DNA of 64,000 nucleotides from assembly GCA_016185545.1 (NCBI GenBank), contig JACPNJ010000003.1, positions 2,567-66,566 on the forward strand, read 5' to 3'. A program made the translations under genes and the position numbers. Origin of the DNA: Candidatus Yanofskybacteria bacterium (GTDB lineage: Bacteria; Patescibacteriota; Minisyncoccia; 2-02-FULL-40-12; IGHO2-01-FULL-4-A). Shown piece by piece: positions 14,493-23,271 of the stretch. How positions within the stretch are numbered: position 1 is the first letter of the stretch; each line of letters begins with the position of its first letter. A model generated the notes under the pieces. The model did not search any database. It was given only the letters and a program-made list of their open reading frames with translations, and had not been told where the DNA came from.

Positions 14493-14659
14493 GAGTTAAC
14501 GGCTTGATTTTTTATTTTTTAGCGGTATTTATTTTGAGAATTTAATCTTGTAAGGAATTTATGAACTATTAGTAGCGCTCGGCTGAATGCATTGCTGCAC
14601 TTACACCTGCGCCCTATCAAGGTGGTAGTCTTCCACCGTTCTTTGTGTCTCCGACTCAG

Positions 14660-14790
14660 TAATCCTTTCTGCTGCAATTTTTATATTTGGGCTACGGCTT
14701 CACAAAAACTCCTCTACATAGTGTAAACTATGTCTCATCGTTTTTGCTTCGCCTCGCCTCAAATATATAAATTTCGCTTAGAAAAATTAC
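14660..14790 (-). repeat. about 130-nt hairpin insertion in 23S 3' domain flanked by tgtctccgactcagtaat inverted repeats
   Basis: Inverted repeat seen directly; interrupts conserved 3'-domain sequence. Confidence 0.5.
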
Positions 14791-15044
14791 TGAGTCGGAG
14801 ACACTAGAAGTCTAATCTTGGGGCCCGTTTCGCGCTTATATGCTTTCAGCGCTTATCGGAACCGAACATAGCTACCCAACGCTGCTTTTGGCAAAACAAT
14901 TGGTAGACCAGAGGTTCGTTCATCCCGGTCCTCTCGTACTAGGGACAAACCCCCTCAAACTTCAACGCCCGCACCAGATAAGGACCAACCTGTCTCACGA
15001 CGGTTTGAACCCAGCTCCATGATTTTTCTCTTATCGCTAAGAGC

Positions 15045-15350
15045 ATAGACTATATCTTTATCCGTCCGCATTTGGCGGATTAGGATACTAGCGTTTTATG
15101 ACAACTGAAAAATTGCCATCTGCTTCGTTTATAGAAGCAAGTCGTTACGGGGACACTAACTAGAAACTAGCAACTAGTCACCAGAAACTAATTTTTGTCT
15201 TCCCTCGATATTGCCCGTGAAATTGGGTTAAATTTTTACGGGTTCTACCGATATAAGCTAGATTAGCGTATTACTTTTATTTTATCACAAAATAACACGC
15301 TTGGCTCGCCCCCAACATTACTGTTGGGGCACGTGAATTTTCGCGTAGCT
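15045..15350 (-). other. ORF-less about 300-nt insertion (small intron or intervening sequence) in 23S between TACGCGA and GCTGGGTT (E. coli about 2590s)
   Basis: Exon sequence ctacgcgaa | ... | gagctgggttcaaaccgtcgtgagacag flanks non-rRNA sequence containing a CTAG-rich stretch and the aagtcgttacggg motif shared with the two other introns. Confidence 0.5.
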
Positions 15351-15581
15351 TTTTAATGGGCGAACAGCCCAACCCTTGGCACCTTCTCCAGCGCCAGGAT
15401 AAGCCGAGCCGACATCGAGGTGCCGAACACTGCCGTCGCTAGGGCAATTTATTTTGATTCTACTTTTTCAAATAGATTAGACTATATCATGCGTTCGCCA
15501 TAGCGAACGCCCAGCGTATTATGATTGGCCTTTGATATTATCGCCTCACCAATCATCTGCCAAGTTTGACTTGGCAAGTCG

Positions 15582-16193
15582 TTACGGGAAAAATTTATAA
15601 AGCATTGTTGGCAAAATGTATGGCCGGACAATTTTTATAAGCCGCGGCATACTTTTTTGATAAAACCTGATTCGAAAATATTGTCTATCCTTGTTGATAT
15701 TGGCATCAAGGTCAAATTTTTTCTTGAGTATATCGCAAATCACTTTGTGTTCTTTATAATCAAAACTTTGTGAGTTTATCTTGACGCATTTACTTGTCCC
15801 CAATTCATTTGTTCCGTCATCCATGAGCCAAGTTGCTAAAACCAAAGGATTAAATACCCTTTCAAGAAATTTACCTGGAAAAATCTTTTTGCCATTCCTA
15901 TAAAATAGTTTTTTAAGACCGATAAAATATGGATGAGATACTGTTCGGAAATACATTTTGATTGTATTTTCTCTAGTTTTATAAGTTTTAGGCTCGGAAT
16001 TAACAATATTTTTGAGAGTGTTATATTTCCATAAAACATAATCTTCCTGGCTCTTGCCATGATGCAACCTCAACGAATATCCCATTGTCGTTTCGTCCAA
16101 ATAACCGTCGCCGAGCAATGTGCCAACAATTACCGAAATTTGTTTGCCGGTAAGTTTTGCTTCTCTCATTAGTTTTATTTTTTGATTCTCCAT
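15582..16193 (-). CDS. LAGLIDADG homing endonuclease (two-motif: LLGDGYL / LMDDGT) encoded in a 23S group I intron (about 15425-16320)
   Basis: ORF track; both LAGLIDADG motifs present; intron interrupts the GTTCATATCGACGGCGGTG region of domain V. Confidence 0.85.
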   Translation of the reverse strand: MENQKIKLMREAKLTGKQISVIVGTLLGDGYLDETTMGYSLRLHHGKSQEDYVLWKYNTLKNIVNSEPKTYKTRENTIKMYFRTVSHPYFIGLKKLFYRNGKKIFPGKFLERVFNPLVLATWLMDDGTNELGTSKCVKINSQSFDYKEHKVICDILKKKFDLDANINKDRQYFRIRFYQKSMPRLIKIVRPYILPTMLYKFFP

Positions 16194-16565
16194 TTTTACT
16201 TTACAAACAATCTTCCCACGGTATTGCCGTTTGATTTCTATGTTAATTTTAACATATTTAGTGGCGCGACGCCACGTGGTTTTGTAACCAAAATCAAGTC
16301 GGTTCCACCGTTATAAGCTGATTTAATGAGCGCCCCAATTGACGCTCGGGCAGTACCAGCCTGTTCAATGCATGCAAATAGCGCTCGCTCGCACTCATCG
16401 CTTATGCGGTTCACACTCGCGAAATGCGAATGCGCTCATGCGAATAAACGCTAGACAAGTTCATTAGACTATATCTTTACCCGCTCAATTTTTGAGCGGG
16501 AACGGCGTATTATGGCAAGCCGTCGGCAATTCATGCCTCACCGCTTACCATCCAGGCCATAAGGC

Positions 16566-20965: not shown

Positions 20966-21119
20966 CAAGCTAAACTCAAGTCCAAAAATTTGAGCGGGTA
21001 ATACGCGCTTTTAACACTCGGTTTCCCTACGACTCCGTGCTCTCGCACTTAGTCTACAGCTTGTAAAAACTCGTTGGATCATTCTTCAATAGGCACACCG
21101 TCGCACTACGCTACCGCTT

Positions 21120-21250
21120 CGTGCTCCGAAATCAAAAGTTAAAATGCAAAAGTCAAAATTATAGATGTTCTGAAATTTTGCTAGCAAAATTTCAGAACTC
21201 CACACTTTTGAACTTTGATTTTTGAATTTTGAATTTCGAGACGAACACGA
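21120..21250 (-). repeat. hairpin element family B copy 2 (caaaagttaaaatgcaaaagtcaaaattatagatgttctgaaattttgctagcaaaatttcagaactcc...) in 23S helix-25 region
   Basis: Aligns to 19020-19140 by eye. Confidence 0.55.
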
Positions 21251-21444
21251 AGCGATAGCGAGTGTTCCGGCTCTTTGTAGGCATATGGTTTCAGTTCTAT
21301 TTCACTCCCCTCACCGGGGTTCTTTTCACCTTTCCCTCACGGTACTGGTTCACTATCGATCACCAAAAGTATTTAGTCTTGGACCGTAGTAGGCCCGGAT
21401 TCGCCACGGATAGTCTGCTCCATGGGTACTTAGGGTAGGAGCTC

Positions 21445-21605
21445 ACCTTAAAATTATCTTTCTACTGCAGTTTAATAATTTTGGCTGCGACTTCGTCAGA
21501 TTTCACAAAATGTCCTCGCCGTAGTATAAACTACGCCTCCGGTGATTTTGTTCATCTTCCTCGTCTCGCCAGAAATTATTAAATTTCGCAACGAAAATAA
21601 CTTTA
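21445..21605 (-). repeat. about 160-nt 23S insertion bounded by gagctcaccttaaa / tttaaggtgagctc inverted repeats
   Basis: Inverted repeat seen directly. Confidence 0.45.
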
Positions 21606-21959
21606 AGGTGAGCTCATAATATGAAAAGTTTGATCGTTTTCGCTTAAGGGACTATCACCCGCTTTGGTCGGCCTTTCCAGGACCGTTCGGCTAACAATCA
21701 AATTTGTAACTTTTTTCCAAAACACAACTGAAGACCGCGAACGATCCTCGGCTGTGCTTAGAGTATATTATCCCTGCAACCCTTACCTATTATTAGTAAA
21801 CTAACAAAAGATAAGTTTAGACTGTGCCCCTTTCGCTCGCCGCTACTTAGGGTATGTTTGCGCCTTGCGGCGCATTTGTTTTATTTTCCTCTGGCTACTG
21901 AGATGTTTCACTTCGCCAGGTATGCATCTAGTAGCTAGTTTCTGGTAACTAGTTGCTAG

Positions 21960-22313
21960 TTATTTAAAACTCTTGATAAGATTAAATAACTGCTTACCGC
22001 AGATAGTATATTCACTGATCAAATTTTCATGGTCAGTTTCGCTGATTAACCCAGCATCCTTCATAAAGTTGAGATTAAACAGAACCTCGTCATTAGAACC
22101 CAGCGCATCGTTCAAAAAATTAACTTTATCTTTGGTAGACTTATTTCTACCAAATCCCTCCGCGATATTTGATGGTATTGATCTTGAAGCTCTTCTAATT
22201 TGATCGCAAAGATCATATTTAAGTTCTTTTGGAAGTTTCATAGACAACTGGTGAACTTTTAACGCCAACTTGTAGGACCGATTATATACGTCAAGGTCTT
22301 TATACGAATTCAT
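21960..22313 (-). CDS. four-helix-bundle 23S rRNA intervening-sequence protein (TIGR02436-like), encoded within the helix-9 intervening sequence (21941-22356), which is closed by CTAG-rich inverted repeats
   Basis: ORF track: MNSYKDLDVYNRSYKLALKVHQL...RRASRSIPSNIAEGFGR; insertion lies between GGAAATC...CCCATGCCGGGTAATACC and GAAGTGAAACATCTC (helix 9, the classical intervening-sequence site). Confidence 0.8.
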   Translation of the reverse strand: MNSYKDLDVYNRSYKLALKVHQLSMKLPKELKYDLCDQIRRASRSIPSNIAEGFGRNKSTKDKVNFLNDALGSNDEVLFNLNFMKDAGLISETDHENLISEYTICGKQLFNLIKSFK

Positions 22314-23271
22314 AAAAATTTACCAGAAACTAGAAACCAGAAACCAGCTACTAGATATGCCGGTATTACCCGGCATGGGTTTCCCCATTCGGAAATCTCC
22401 GGATCAAAGCCTGCTAGACGGCTCCCCGAAGCATATCGTCGTCACGCCACGTCCTTCGTCGCCTTTTGGTGTCAAGGCATCCTCCATACGCCCTTATATT
22501 CCTTACAAGATTAAATCTGCAATCATTAGATTGCACCCTTCGTAGCTCTGCGAAGCTTTAGCGTAGCAGAGCGAAGTAGGGCCTCATTTAATCTTCTTGA
22601 TGCTTCAAAACTGGCAACTCTTGAACTCGGAAAGTTAGAGAACAACCAGAAAATGCAAAGCATCATTTTATTTTTAATCCCGTTAGAGGTAGGTTGCCGC
22701 CTATGGCAACCGCAAGCTCTAATCGGGATACCCGCTAACTATTCATTTTTTAAATTGCAATCTATTCAATCAGTTTAGTGTTAGCTTCCGTCGGGCACCA
22801 CCTCGATAAACAAGGTGACGCCCGACGACAGCCAATTTATTGATGAAACCCCAGCACCAATTTTGCAAAGTCTAATAACGGCAGGGCGCTTCGCCCATTG
22901 CAGAATATGCCCATTCGGCACGCGCACCCTGCAAAATCTTGGCTAACGTATCATATTTATTTAGCAACTACCAACTAAATTAGGCAAAATGGTGCGGGGT
23001 TATTTTTTGTTTCCATGCTCACTATCGCTGCGCTTGGACAAAAAATAAATCCCGCCAAGCGGGACGTTTTCGGGCACAAATTAACACCAAGACGTCATCC
23101 GCTTTTTTGTAATGCTTTGTTTAATTTTTTCATCCCGTACGAGACAGGATAAGCCTTGCGGCTTATCCGTATCTTATTATATTATATCTACCTTATTAAT
23201 CCCGATTAGATAGCTACTCTAACTTTATTTACTAGCAAAGGCTGTCTCGTTCGGGATTCATCATCAAAATC

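What the first reader, a model, noticed from the sequence alone, without database searches (positions are those of the whole stretch)
14548..22512. 23S rRNA gene expanded to about 8 kb by at least 12 insertions of at least six different kinds
Conserved 23S blocks appear in the right order on the minus strand but are interrupted many times. (1) Two group I introns carry double-motif LAGLIDADG genes, 15582-16193 and 16566-17174, in the peptidyl-transferase region. The first sits in the GTTCATATCGACGGCGG region and the second after GGGGATAA, E. coli about 2449. (2) An ORF-less intron interrupts TACGCGA|GCTGGGTT. (3) A helix-9 intervening sequence encodes the four-helix-bundle IVS protein. (4) An intervening sequence at 17586-17855 encodes a 70-aa charged protein. 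(5) CTAG-repeat hairpins and two copies of a family-B hairpin element occupy variable helices 25 and 63. (6) Two cassettes bounded by inverted repeats lie on the opposite strand. Mature rRNA would need about 5 kb removed by a mix of splicing and RNase III-type excision. Intron-rich rRNA is known for CPR bacteria, but this density and diversity in one gene is unusual, and the window therefore contains four LAGLIDADG genes.
Basis: partly seen in the sequence, partly recalled or inferred. Interest (0 to 1): 0.8.

Follow-up and report, generated by a model that had tools for sequence, protein, structure and literature searches.

The report
Insertion-riddled 23S gene with antisense minigenes
The only 23S ribosomal RNA gene in this stretch of a Candidatus Yanofskybacteria (CPR) genome is stretched from 2.9 to 8 kb by four self-splicing introns and eleven hairpin-type insertions, which is normal for this group; two of the insertions, however, belong to an apparently undescribed family of tiny hairpin-bounded gene cassettes that always read against the rRNA.

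Summary
Window 22508..14558 (minus strand) is a bacterial 23S gene, collinear with E. coli 23S. It carries about 5.06 kb of extra sequence at 15 sites, plus a private 42-nt tandem duplication. Removing the extra sequence leaves about 2,904 nt.

- There are four group I introns, not three (after U1923, U2449, U2473 and at about 2576).
- One "inverted-repeat cassette" is the P8 arm of the missed L1923 intron. The other sits in the helix-31 loop.
- I found three LAGLIDADG-type ORFs in the window, not four.

The density is not exceptional. A published CPR survey reports up to 16 insertions and 5,750 bp per gene, and relatives fetched here carry 11-12.

The two cassettes are the new part. They belong to a family with 24 distinct members found here. 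Each member has 17-21-bp arms (CCCGCTCAAATTTTTGG), a sigma-70-type promoter, a ribosome-binding site, a small and mostly orphan ORF, and an intrinsic terminator. All 19 distinct members with a known host read antisense to the rRNA or intron. Homologous cassettes occur at different host sites, and one cargo pair gives dN/dS 0.30. I found no prior description in the literature I could search.

The parts
14558..22508 (-). 23S rRNA gene (about 7.95 kb; about 2.9 kb of exon sequence)
   Evidence: Rfam LSU 1388 bits and 248.9 bits for the 3' part. 17 collinear blocks against E. coli rrlH. Processing-stem inverted repeat at 14540-14561 / 22495-22516.
21929..22375 (-). Helix-9 intervening sequence. 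It has 40-bp CTAG-repeat arms (21926-21965 / 22317-22356) and a sense ORF at 21960-22313 (117 aa, four-helix-bundle IVS protein).
   Evidence: PF05635 E 1.7e-31 and TIGR02436 E 5.7e-31. Arms (I2).
21697..21826 (-). Domain I expansion, Ec261-290 (+102 nt, two hairpins)
21413..21636 (-). Domain I hairpin insertion, Ec348-390 (+183 nt; arms 21436-21481 / 21573-21618)
   Evidence: I1. Fold z -7.9.
21107..21262 (-). Helix-25 hairpin (+147 nt). Its tip is shared with the H63 hairpin.
   Evidence: Fold z -9.5. Repeats D16 and I15.
20436..20998 (.). Family-1 cassette c2 in the apical loop of helix 31. It has 21-bp perfect arms (20436-20456 / 20978-20998). On the + strand (antisense to the rRNA) it carries TTGACA at 20455, an RBS and an ORF at 20524-20745 (73 aa, two TM-like segments). 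A nested structured element lies at 20790-20980.
   Evidence: (I12)
19870..19969 (-). Hairpin insertion at Ec~1118 (+100 nt)
   Evidence: (I16)
19714..19825 (-). Helix-45 hairpin (+99 nt). It is 98% identical to a hairpin that sits at H63 in L108 and L109; an 85-nt, 95%-identical copy also lies at the 5' end of contig L109, just upstream of the Ec551 block (H25 position).
18960..19169 (-). Helix-63 hairpin (+145 nt), second copy of the H25-type tip
   Evidence: z -7.9
18778..18874 (-). Helix-68 CTAG-repeat hairpin (+65 nt). Its arms are 90% identical to the H9 IVS arm; it is an ORF-less version.
   Evidence: D3, I4, I6. Fold z -11.3.
18189..18740 (-). Proposed pairings: P1 UAUAAUCGU/GCGAUUAUA, P3 UCUGAC/GUCAGA, P4 UGCUGG/UCAGCA, a P6 hairpin, P8 formed by cassette c1, a P9 hairpin, and a 3'-terminal G.
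   Evidence: Sequence. The core is shared with an intron family whose L061 members pass the Rfam gathering score (66.8, 66.2 and 63.9 bits). The same intron is present in L108 with a short P8 and a LAGLIDADG_1 gene.
18235..18559 (.). Family-1 cassette c1 replacing P8 of the L1923 intron. Arms lie at 18235-18257 / 18537-18559. The + strand carries a promoter (TTGACA-16-TAAGAT, 18261-18288), an ORF at 18314-18514 (66 aa, TM-like) and a terminator at 18510-18529 followed by a T-run.
   Evidence: (I10)
18063..18146 (-). Perfect 42-nt tandem duplication of conserved core (Ec 1965-2006)
   Evidence: D2. Single copy in L009, L010, L016, L025 and L040 and in L108.
17578..17870 (-). Helix-79 intervening sequence. 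Arms lie at 17579-17598 / 17851-17870, with a sense ORF at 17604-17816 (70 aa) and its own RBS.
   Evidence: (I18). In L108 this helix is short and has no ORF.
16366..17349 (-). Group I intron A after U2449 (984 nt), with an I-SceI-like LAGLIDADG_2 gene at 16566-17174. Its P8 is the short hairpin cccgctcaaaaattgagcggg (16480-16500).
   Evidence: Intron-less allele GGGGATAACAGGCTGG in L108. Homologous introns in L085 and L087.
16342..16365 (-). 24-nt exon (A2450-U2473) between introns A and B
15445..16341 (-). Group I intron B after U2473 (897 nt; P1 GAGCGU/GCGCUC; 3'-terminal G), with a LAGLIDADG_2 gene at 15582-16193
   Evidence: (3' half 21.5 bits). Present in L108 at 86% identity.
15018..15342 (-). 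ORF-less group I intron C at Ec2575-2577. The junction is ambiguous by a GA repeat. A CTAG-repeat hairpin sits where introns A and B carry their ORFs.
   Evidence: Rfam Intron_gpI 36.4 bits, E 1.6e-6. Intron-less allele GCTACGCGAGCTGGGTT in L108.
14645..14811 (-). Helix-98 hairpin (+141 nt)
   Evidence: z -13.4. A 78%-identical element sits at a different 23S site in L108.
14378..14495 (-). 5S rRNA gene downstream of the 23S gene
   Evidence: Rfam 77.6 bits

Best explanation
This is the functional 23S rRNA gene of a Candidatus Yanofskybacteria (CPR/Patescibacteria) genome. At least five classes of selfish or mobile insertions have colonised it without destroying it.

1. Four group I introns interrupt conserved core, after U1923, U2449, U2473 and at about 2576. 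They are removed by self-splicing. Two carry I-SceI-type homing endonuclease genes that can copy the intron into intron-less alleles.
2. Eleven insertions extend the tips of peripheral helices as long, near-perfect hairpins. As with classical bacterial IVSs, a double-strand-specific RNase (RNase III) probably cuts the stem. The rRNA then works as fragments, or the stem stays as an expansion segment.
3. Some of these hairpins carry sense ORFs: the IVS protein in H9, and a 70-aa protein with its own ribosome-binding site in H79.
4. Two insertions are family-1 cassettes, one in the H31 loop and one replacing P8 of the L1923 intron. Each is a complete expression unit (promoter, RBS, small ORF, intrinsic terminator) enclosed by 17-21-bp inverted arms, and it reads opposite to the rRNA.
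   - In the rRNA or intron transcript the arms pair. The unit is closed off as a helix extension, and its terminator is inert because it is read backwards.
   - On the other strand the unit makes a short mRNA that lies entirely between the arms.
   - The strict antisense orientation most likely reflects selection against placing an intrinsic terminator in the sense direction of the single rRNA operon.
   - A side effect is that the pre-rRNA is a perfect antisense RNA to the cassette mRNA, so cassette expression should fall when rRNA synthesis is high.

Shown here: the anatomy, the homology, presence/absence between relatives, the orientation rule and the coding constraint.

Inferred, not shown: splicing, RNase III cutting, cassette transcription and translation, and the means of transposition.
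For: The gene and its collinearity.

Organism: the flanking RmuC gene has 52 relatives in Yanofskybacteria and Paceibacteria MAGs, and 14 of them keep the RmuC-23S synteny. The proteins are annotated in an NCBI Yanofskybacteria MAG.

Functional core motifs are intact after removal of the insertions: GGGGAU|AACAGGCUGG, GAUGUCGGCUC and AGUACGAGAGGACC.

Introns:
- LAGLIDADG_2 and I-SceI matches.
- Rfam Intron_gpI E 1.6e-6 for intron C.
- U.G at the 5' splice site and a terminal G for the L1923, L2449 and L2473 introns.
- Exact intron-less alleles in L108.
- The L1923 core is shared with introns that pass the Rfam gathering score.

Hairpins:
- MFE z -7 to -13.
- The same hairpin sequence occurs in different helices in close relatives.

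Cassettes:
- 24 distinct members.
- 19 of the 23 scored have a sigma-70-type promoter.
- The longest ORF lies on the promoter-to-terminator strand in 22 of 23, and 15 have a Shine-Dalgarno sequence.
- All 19 distinct cassettes with a known host read antisense.
- In the host-sense strand the arms show 18 G.U against 3 A.C pairs.
- A native short P8 in L108 stands against the cassette in the window.
- The L109 (H31) and L072 (intron P6) cassettes are 76% identical in nucleotides over about 350 nt and 62% in amino acids, with dN/dS 0.30.
- The L025 (H31) and L070 (H9) cargo proteins are 40% identical.
Against: - No RNA data exist here, so splicing, excision and antisense transcription are all untested.
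- None of the four window introns reaches Rfam's gathering score. The best is 36.4 bits against 50.
- Intron C would have a C-G pair, not U.G, at the 5' splice site.
- The perfect 42-nt duplication inside conserved domain IV (18063-18146) is hard to reconcile with a fully functional rRNA if it is real.
- The window cassette ORFs have no homologues. One search found none for c2, and c1 was not searched.
- c2 has only a 3/6 match at the -10 hexamer.
- No transposase, recombinase or target-site duplication was found, so mobility rests on comparative evidence only.
- The orientation and wobble counts include related cassettes, so the events are not fully independent.
Confidence: 0.8

Rival explanations
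1. The hairpin insertions are not excised. They stay in the mature 23S rRNA as expansion segments on the ribosome surface, and only the four introns are removed.
For: All hairpin insertions sit at helix tips (H9, H25, H31, H45, H63, H68, H79, H98) and close with long stems. Such stems would be tolerated sterically. Nothing in the sequence proves cleavage.
Against: - Long perfect stems of 17-40 bp are typical RNase III substrates, and H25 and H45 are the classical cleaved IVS sites (established knowledge; also stated).
- Per Tsurumaki et al. 2024, Brown et al. found CPR insertions to be removed from transcripts.
- Keeping 300-560-nt ORF-bearing segments in every ribosome would be costly for an organism with a genome of about 1 Mb.
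Confidence: 0.25
2. The locus is an assembly artefact or chimera. Insertions from several strains were stitched into one gene, so the real gene is less interrupted.
For: - This is a metagenome-assembled genome.
- rRNA genes are notoriously hard to assemble, and many related contigs break inside the 23S gene.
- The perfect 42-nt tandem duplication is private to this assembly.
Against: - Independent contigs from other samples carry the same insertions at the same sites: the L1923 intron, intron B and the H31 cassette architecture in L108 and L109, and 11-12 insertions in L025 and L040.
- The exons are collinear and sum to 2,904 nt.
- Each insertion has clean structural boundaries.
Confidence: 0.05
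3. The gene is a decaying pseudogene, and the working 23S gene lies elsewhere in the genome.
For: The gene carries an extreme insertion load. The 42-nt duplication lies in conserved core. No 16S gene is found in the window.
Against: - Exon sequence is highly conserved: blocks are 62-85% identical to E. coli, and catalytic-centre motifs are intact.
- The 5S gene and the processing stem are in place.
- The same RmuC-23S-5S arrangement recurs in relatives.
- CPR genomes usually have one 16S and one 23S copy.
Confidence: 0.03
4. The family-1 cassettes are not genes. The arms are simply conserved RNA stems, and the promoter-, ORF- and terminator-like features are chance or RNA-structural features of AT-rich filler.
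For: - The cargo ORFs tested have no homologues beyond themselves.
- Several ORFs are short (35-57 aa).
- c2 has a weak -10 hexamer.
- The G.U excess in the host-sense strand shows the stem matters at the RNA level.
Against: - 19 of 23 have TTGACA-like plus correctly spaced TAnnnT hexamers next to one arm, and almost all have a GC hairpin with a T-run next to the other arm.
- The longest ORF is on that strand in 22 of 23, with a median shuffle p of 0.018, and 15 have a Shine-Dalgarno sequence before the ATG.
- Two cargo families are conserved as protein across different host sites. One shows dN/dS 0.30 and only in-frame indels.
Confidence: 0.1
5. Functional sub-hypothesis: the cassettes are addiction or stress modules of the type I toxin-antitoxin kind. 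A small, often membrane-active peptide is kept silent by a cis-encoded antisense RNA, which here is the abundant pre-rRNA or intron. The peptide is made only when rRNA transcription stops.
For: - 10 of 23 cargo proteins have TM-like segments, including both window cassettes.
- The geometry is strictly antisense.
- The cassette mRNA lies wholly within a region transcribed at rRNA rates.
Against: - More than half of the cargo proteins are soluble, basic or Cys-rich, and unrelated to each other.
- No toxicity data exist.
- The antisense rule is explained more simply by avoidance of sense-strand terminators.
Confidence: 0.2

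Closest known systems
Insertion-rich rRNA genes of CPR/Patescibacteria (Brown et al. 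2015, as cited; Tsurumaki et al. 2024, PMC11270868)
   Same: The lineage is the same, and 23S genes are interrupted many times. Group I introns cluster in domains IV-V. LAGLIDADG_2 and 23S_rRNA_IVP ORFs are present. Short non-intron insertions sit at the classical IVS helices. The counts fall inside the published range of at most 16 insertions and at most 5,750 bp.
   Different: The survey classed non-intron insertions without Pfam ORFs as uncharacterised, mentioning "long sequences (500-1,000 bp) of unknown function". A full-text search of its main text for "antisense" or "opposite strand" finds nothing. It does not describe conserved arms, internal promoters and terminators, or the orientation rule. 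Sites U2473 and about 2576 are not among the positions it names; its site map is a figure that I could not read.
Coxiella burnetii 23S rRNA gene (IVS with S23p ORF in helix 45, excised by RNase III, plus group I introns L1917 and L1951; PMC4990558 for the IVS, introns from my own knowledge)
   Same: It is a single-copy 23S gene in a reduced genome. It combines an ORF-bearing hairpin IVS of the same protein family (PF05635) with group I introns around helix 69-71.
   Different: Coxiella has 3 insertions, while this gene has 15. The IVS protein ORF here is in helix 9, not helix 45. Coxiella has no antisense units.
Yeast mitochondrial omega intron (LSU position 2449) with I-SceI
   Same: Intron A sits after U2449 and encodes a two-motif LAGLIDADG_2 protein that matches I-SceI structures (E 1.4e-7; intron B's protein E 6.5e-17).
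   Different: The host is bacterial. Protein similarity to I-SceI is distant (phmmer E 1.4e-7 and 6.5e-17; identity not computed). Cleavage specificity is untested.
Antisense homing endonuclease genes in nuclear rDNA group I introns (e.g. L2066 introns of myxomycetes, PMC9548176)
   Same: A protein gene inside an rDNA group I intron is read from the strand opposite to the rRNA.
   Different: Those are eukaryotic His-Cys box HEGs with spliceosomal introns and pol II signals. Here the units are bacterial sigma-70 promoter and intrinsic terminator units. Their cargo is unrelated and not an endonuclease, they have portable inverted arms, and they also occur outside introns.
Hairpin-forming MITE-like repeats with promoters and RNase III processing (Neisseria Correia elements; from my own knowledge)
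   Same: They are short elements bounded by terminal inverted repeats. They carry promoter activity, and their transcripts fold into RNase III-cleavable hairpins. They are scattered at many sites.
   Different: Correia elements are 100-155 bp, non-coding, and flanked by a TA duplication. Family-1 cassettes are 250-560 bp (one is 1,023 bp) and carry a complete gene. They show no target duplication and are found in structured-RNA hairpin tips.
Type I toxin-antitoxin loci (hok/sok, tisB/istR and others; from my own knowledge)
   Same: A small, often hydrophobic ORF is overlapped by a cis-encoded antisense transcript.
   Different: Here the antisense partner is the rRNA precursor or an intron, not a dedicated sRNA. 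About half of the cargo is not hydrophobic, and toxicity is untested.

Membership tests
Bacterial 23S (LSU) rRNA gene | Match to the LSU covariance model over its full length, with conserved blocks in the right order | tested here: met
   Rfam RF02541 scores 1388 bits plus 248.9 bits for the 3' part. 17 collinear blocks cover Ec 12-2884.
Group I intron | Score at or above the Rfam RF00028 gathering threshold (50 bits) | tested here: not met
   Intron C scores 36.4 bits (E 1.6e-6). The 3' half of intron B scores 21.5 bits (E 0.044). Intron A and the L1923 intron give no hit. Large ORF or cassette insertions split the cores. The published CPR survey used E <= 1e-4, which intron C passes.
Group I intron | P1 pairs the 5' exon end with an internal guide, with a U.G at the splice site, and the intron ends in G | tested here: met
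   L1923: UAUAAUCGU/GCGAUUAUA. L2449: GGGAU/GUCCC. L2473: GAGCGU/GCGCUC. All three have a terminal exon U and an intron-final G (read). Intron C has a C-G pair instead (UACGC/GCGUG), which is an exception.
Group I intron | Conserved catalytic core (P3-P4-P6-P7-P8-P9 order; R and S elements) | tested here: inconclusive
   L1923 shows P3, P4, P6, CAGAGACCUAC / AAGAUAGAGUCC and P9 by inspection. It shares its core with L061 introns that score 64-67 bits. Introns A, B and C share the blocks GGGAAG...CCCGUAACGACUU, AUAAUACGC and GAUAUAGUCUA. The three-sequence consensus fold was too weak to prove the structure.
Group I intron | Precise presence/absence at the site in related genes (intron-less allele) | tested here: met
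   L108 has GGGGATAACAGGCTGG at 2449 and GCTACGCGAGCTGGGTT at 2576. The L1923 and L2473 introns are present in L108 and homologous.
Group I intron | Self-splicing activity | not testable with these tools
   Needs in vitro transcription and splicing, or RNA-seq junction reads.
LAGLIDADG homing endonuclease (two-motif, I-SceI type) | Pfam LAGLIDADG_2 domain over full length, with two motifs in one chain | tested here: met
   PF03161 E 2.2e-40 and 2.6e-35 over 168/168 profile positions. Motifs are LLGDGY / WLMDDG and IMGDSY / WFMDDG. I-SceI structures match at E 6.5e-17 and 1.4e-7. DNA cleavage was not tested.
23S rRNA intervening-sequence protein (four-helix bundle) | PF05635 / TIGR02436 match above cut-off, encoded inside an rRNA IVS | tested here: met
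   109 bits against a cut-off of 33.8, and 106.9 bits against 24. The ORF lies inside the H9 hairpin.
RNase III-excised bacterial IVS | The insertion replaces a helix tip and closes with a long double-stranded stem | tested here: met
   All ORF-less insertions, plus H9, H79 and c2, have outermost pairs at their ends. Folds give z -6.6 to -13.4.
RNase III-excised bacterial IVS | Cleavage without religation, giving a fragmented 23S rRNA | not testable with these tools
   Needs RNA data or an RNase III assay.
MITE / insertion sequence | Terminal inverted repeats plus a target-site duplication, and (for an IS) a transposase | tested here: not met
   Inverted repeats are present. No consistent duplication appears in the flanks of 30 copies. 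No transposase-like cargo was seen.
Integron gene cassette | A promoterless ORF followed by a single attC site, arrayed next to an integrase | tested here: not met
   The cassettes have their own promoter and terminator. They have two identical arms, occur singly inside RNA genes, and no integrase lies nearby.
Type I toxin-antitoxin | A small toxic membrane peptide repressed by a cis-antisense RNA | tested here: inconclusive
   The antisense geometry is met. TM-like cargo is present in only 10 of 23. Toxicity and repression were not tested.

The most novel reading that the evidence does not exclude
CPR (Paceibacteria/Yanofskybacteria) rRNA operons host a previously undescribed class of mobile minigene cassette.
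- Each cassette is a 0.25-1 kb unit: one small, fast-turning-over protein gene with its own promoter and terminator, flanked by portable 17-21-bp inverted arms.
- It inserts only into (or replaces) hairpin tips of rRNA and group I introns, and only antisense to the host RNA.
- The arms make the insertion harmless to the host RNA.
- The host transcript may in turn gate expression of the hidden gene.
- The H79 sense-ORF cassettes (conserved stem, four unrelated ORFs in four genomes) and the hopping ORF-less hairpins would be sister strategies.

If this holds, rRNA genes of these reduced genomes are a reservoir of small accessory genes. Some of them were annotated as hypothetical proteins but none was recognised as part of such a family.
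Probability: 0.5. Interest if true: 0.75.

Novelty: new variant of a known kind. Interest (0 to 1): 0.6.

Why it matters
It is a known phenomenon, and this gene sits near the top of the published range.

The comparative work adds three points:
- The insertions turn over fast. Relatives with 86-99%-identical exon segments differ at almost every site.
- ORF-less hairpins move between helices.
- A coherent family of antisense expression units hides small, mostly orphan protein genes inside rRNA and intron hairpins.

If the cassettes are expressed, CPR rRNA genes are a hotspot for accessory small proteins. Many of these are membrane-type, and some are annotated only as hypothetical proteins, if called at all. 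The system would then offer a natural case of gene expression wired inversely to rRNA transcription. It also gives a concrete handle, the conserved arms, for asking how non-intron insertions spread through CPR rRNA genes. The published survey left that question open.

Tried and rejected
- Exact-sequence look-ups of the MscS-like and 70-aa proteins found no contig. The source was identified instead through cluster membership.
- Homologue searches found nothing for cassette cargo c2 and only itself for the L070 cargo. The cargo proteins tested are orphans, so function could not be assigned by homology. Pfam and NCBIfam gave only sub-threshold noise for the small ORFs.
- Rfam found no family for the structured element shared by cassette c2 and the rpoC 3' region. 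MAFFT misaligned the two copies, and I dropped the plan to build a covariance model from two sequences. blastn found only fragments elsewhere.
- One multi-locus Rfam call failed and was repeated with fewer loci.
- A three-sequence consensus fold of introns A, B and C was too shallow to prove a group I core.
- I looked for target-site duplications next to 30 cassette copies and found none that were consistent.
- I looked for a fourth LAGLIDADG gene by tblastn, motif scan and Pfam on 36 ORFs and did not find one.
- Brown et al. 2015 is not in the held library.
- Literature searches for antisense or inverted-repeat cassettes in CPR rRNA found nothing relevant.
- Considered and rejected:
  - A group II intron: no Rfam hit and no reverse-transcriptase ORF.
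  - An IS or transposon: no transposase.
  - An integron cassette: wrong architecture.
  - A pseudogene: the core is conserved and synteny is kept.

Full report
**1. The observation**

Rfam places a bacterial LSU rRNA on the minus strand at 22508..17267 (1388 bits) and a 5S rRNA at 14495..14378. The LSU alignment stops early because of two large introns. Searched alone, the 3' part matches model positions 2048-2912 at 15599..14558 (248.9 bits).

blastn against E. coli K-12 rrlH gives 17 collinear blocks, Ec 12-2884, running from 22496 down to 14568. The numbering was checked at A2451 and A2660. A 22-bp inverted repeat at 14540-14561 / 22495-22516 pairs the two ends of the gene.

**2. Inventory**

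Fifteen sites carry extra sequence relative to E. coli.

| Site | Extra sequence (nt) |
|---|---|
| H9 | +404 |
| Ec261-290 | +102 |
| Ec348-390 | +183 |
| H25 | +147 |
| H31 loop | +565 |
| Ec~1118 | +100 |
| H45 | +99 |
| H63 | +145 |
| H68 | +65 |
| after U1923 | 552 |
| H79 | +270 |
| after U2449 | 984 |
| after U2473 | 897 |
| Ec2575-2577 | ~323 |
| H98 | +141 |

With a 42-nt duplication this totals about 5,061 nt, and 7,965 - 5,061 = 2,904, the length of E. coli 23S. Helix names come from my knowledge of the E. coli secondary structure. They were not tool-tested, apart from the H31 stem (UUAAAAGCG/CGCUUGUAA) and the H69 stem, which I read from the sequence.

**3. Introns**

The ORFs at 15582-16193 and 16566-17174 are full-length LAGLIDADG_2 proteins (E 2e-40 and 3e-35). 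Each has two motifs, and their best solved relatives are I-SceI structures.

- **Intron A** (17349..16366) follows U2449, the omega-intron site.
- **Intron B** (16341..15445) follows U2473. Only a 24-nt exon separates it from intron A.
- **Intron C** (about 15342..15018) has no ORF. It is the only intron Rfam detects: Intron_gpI at 36.4 bits, E 1.6e-6, below the gathering score of 50.

Introns A, B and C share core blocks. In each, the ORF, or in C a CTAG-repeat hairpin, sits between GGGAAG and CCCGUAACGACUU.

By inspection it has:
- a 9-bp P1 with U.G at the splice site;
- P3, P4 and P6;
- R- and S-like elements;
- P9;
- a terminal G.

Its core belongs to a large intron family in related 23S genes. 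Three L061 members of that family score 64-67 bits against Rfam.

Close relatives L108, L109 and L110 (exon segments 86-99% identical to the window) give natural controls:
- Introns A and C are precisely absent. L108 reads GGGGATAACAGGCTGG at 2449 and GCTACGCGAGCTGGGTT at 2576.
- Intron B and the L1923 intron are present.
- Two further introns, at about Ec2500 and Ec2657, occur there but not in the window.

**4. Hairpin insertions**

Every ORF-less insertion longer than 100 nt folds as one long hairpin, z -7 to -13. They fall into sequence families:
- The H25 and H63 hairpins share their tips.
- The H68 hairpin has the same CTAG-repeat arms as the H9 IVS, and so does part of the intron C loop.

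These hairpins move between helices. The window's H45 hairpin is 98% identical to one sitting at H63 in L108 and L109, and an 85-nt, 95%-identical copy lies at the 5' end of contig L109 at the H25 position. Its H98 hairpin resembles an element at another site in L108.

The H9 insertion encodes the four-helix-bundle IVS protein in the sense orientation.

The H79 insertion has a conserved stem, (C)ACCCUAGA.GGAG / CUAGGGU(G). It holds a sense ORF with its own ribosome-binding site. The ORF differs completely in four genomes: 70, 83, 78 and 83 aa. The window's 70-aa protein has two distant homologues. In L108 the helix is short and has no ORF.

**5. The two inverted-repeat cassettes**

Both use the same arms, CCCGCTCAAATTTTT(T)GG.
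- **c2** (20436-20998) sits in the H31 loop.
- **c1** (18235-18559) takes the P8 position of the L1923 intron. L108 has a short, unrelated P8 there, so the arms and the cargo together are the inserted unit.
- Intron A's P8 is a 21-nt hairpin made of the same arm sequence.

An exact-match scan of metagenome contigs with the 18-nt arm gave 53 loci, and 30 hits had the partner arm. With the genome loci and L109, this makes 24 distinct cassettes. Their layout is uniform:
1. One arm, then a TTGACA-like hexamer within a few nucleotides of it.
2. A -10 hexamer at 16-18 nt. 19 of 23 have a full sigma-70-type match.
3. A Shine-Dalgarno sequence and an ORF of 35-113 aa. One 1,023-bp cassette holds a 177-aa ORF.
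4. A GC hairpin with a T-run, then the second arm.

The longest ORF lies on the promoter-to-terminator strand in 22 of 23 cassettes. The cargo proteins are mostly unrelated to one another, and the ones I searched are orphans. 10 of 23 have TM-like segments.

Host sites found:
- H31;
- H9;
- the ORF loop of A/B/C-type introns;
- P6 and P8 of L1917- and L1923-type introns;
- some unidentified contexts.

All 19 distinct cassettes whose host orientation is known read antisense to the host RNA. Under independence the chance of this is about 2e-6. In the host-sense strand the arms show 18 G.U against 3 A.C pairs, which suggests the stem is kept at the level of the host transcript.

Mobility and coding are supported by two comparisons:
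- The L109 cassette (H31) and the L072 cassette (intron P6) are 76% identical over about 350 nt and 62% identical in protein. They give dN/dS 0.30, and their indels are in-frame.
- The L025 (H31) and L070 (H9) cargo proteins are 40% identical.

Short forms of 49-59 nt keep the arms and remnants of the promoter and terminator sides.

**6. Mechanism**

Shown here:
- the anatomy;
- the site-specific presence or absence between relatives;
- the orientation rule;
- purifying selection on at least one cargo family.

Inferred:
- The introns self-splice.
- The hairpins are cut by RNase III, as in classical IVSs, or are kept as expansion segments.
- The cassette arms pair in the pre-rRNA or intron and so isolate the unit.
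- Antisense orientation is enforced because a sense-strand intrinsic terminator would abort rRNA synthesis.
- The pre-rRNA acts as an antisense RNA to the cassette mRNA.

What moves the cassettes is unknown. I found no transposase and no target duplication. Recombination through the conserved arms is the simplest idea.

**7. Comparison with what is known**

The organism is a Candidatus Yanofskybacteria MAG. A survey of 348 CPR 23S genes reports the following:
- insertions in 82% of genes;
- up to 16 per gene;
- up to 5,750 bp per 23S gene (mean 1,327, SD 1,112);
- group I introns biased to the 3' half;
- LAGLIDADG_1/2 and IVP ORFs;
- uncharacterised long insertions.

This gene is in the upper tail of that range but inside it. 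Relatives L025 and L040 carry 12 and 11 insertions. The headline claim is therefore a new member of a known kind.

The antisense cassettes are not mentioned in that paper, and my literature searches did not find them. The nearest analogues are:
- antisense homing endonuclease genes in eukaryotic rDNA introns (PMC9548176);
- Correia-type hairpin repeats;
- type I toxin-antitoxin loci.

None of these matches on its defining features.

**8. Open problems**

- The perfect 42-nt tandem duplication of Ec 1965-2006 (18063-18146) is absent from all relatives, including L108, whose flanks are 99% identical. It may be an assembly artefact or a very recent mutation. If it is real, it is hard to square with a fully functional rRNA.
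- None of the window introns passes Rfam's curated threshold.
- I could not reach the primary CPR paper, so "undescribed" holds only for the literature I could search.

Noticed in passing
window 18063-18146 (minus-strand sense): A perfect 42-nt tandem duplication of conserved 23S core (Ec 1965-2006). It is single copy in all six relatives examined, including L108, whose flanks are 99% identical. It could be an artefact or a very recent mutation.
   Followed up: partly
window 9125-9375 (+), just after the rpoC stop codon: A structured element bounded by the inverted repeat gcttctcaaaaaatt / aattttttgagaagc (MFE z -7.1). Over 114 nt it is 79% identical to the inner part of cassette c2 (20819-20924, rRNA-sense strand). 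The same inner part is kept in the L109 H31 cassette. It has no Rfam family.
   Followed up: partly
window 17578-17870; L009 12590-12926; L016 20613-20961; L025 15332-15684: The helix-79 site has a conserved stem that contains or adjoins a Shine-Dalgarno sequence. It encloses a sense-strand ORF that is completely different in each of four genomes (70-83 aa). This looks like a second, sense-oriented cassette system.
   Followed up: partly
window 19711-19821 and 14666-14789; L108 1653-1764 and 345-467; L109 1-85 and 2401-2512: Near-identical ORF-less hairpins sit in different 23S helices in closely related genomes. The window's H45 hairpin matches one at H63 in L108 and L109, and a partial copy lies at the H25 position in L109. 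The window's H98 hairpin matches an element at a domain II site in L108. The hairpins are therefore themselves mobile.
   Followed up: partly
window 59616-60278 (-): A LAGLIDADG_3-like ORF (PF14528, E 2e-6) lies immediately upstream of tRNA-Leu(tag) at 59552-59636. It is the only LAGLIDADG-type ORF found outside the 23S gene, so the window holds three, not four.
   Followed up: partly
window 16585-16608 / 17160-17183: A perfect 24-nt inverted repeat pairs the start and the end of the intron A endonuclease ORF. In the RNA this would close the ORF off as a stem-loop and bury its TTG start codon.
   Followed up: no
window 40950-41073 (+): A LOOT RNA (Rfam RF03000), 69.5 bits, above its gathering score.
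   Followed up: no
window 22513-23480 (minus strand): A leader of about 760 nt lies between a TTGACG-17-TACAAT promoter-like site (~23300-23270) and the 23S 5' end. There is no 16S gene anywhere in the window. A CTAG-repeat run of the same type as the H9/H68 arms follows the stop codon of the MscS-like gene (23450-23478).
   Followed up: no
window 48676-49170 (+): An ORF with helix-turn-helix domains of the IS481-transposase N-terminal type (HTH_28, E 9.5e-9). It was not examined as a possible partner of the mobile elements.
   Followed up: no
L108 2118-2675 against window 18560-18600: The same L1923 intron carries a LAGLIDADG_1 gene in P6 in L108. In the window it carries only a 19-nt P6 hairpin, while the window has a cassette in P8. 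Endonuclease gene and cassette are therefore alternative cargos of one intron.
   Followed up: partly
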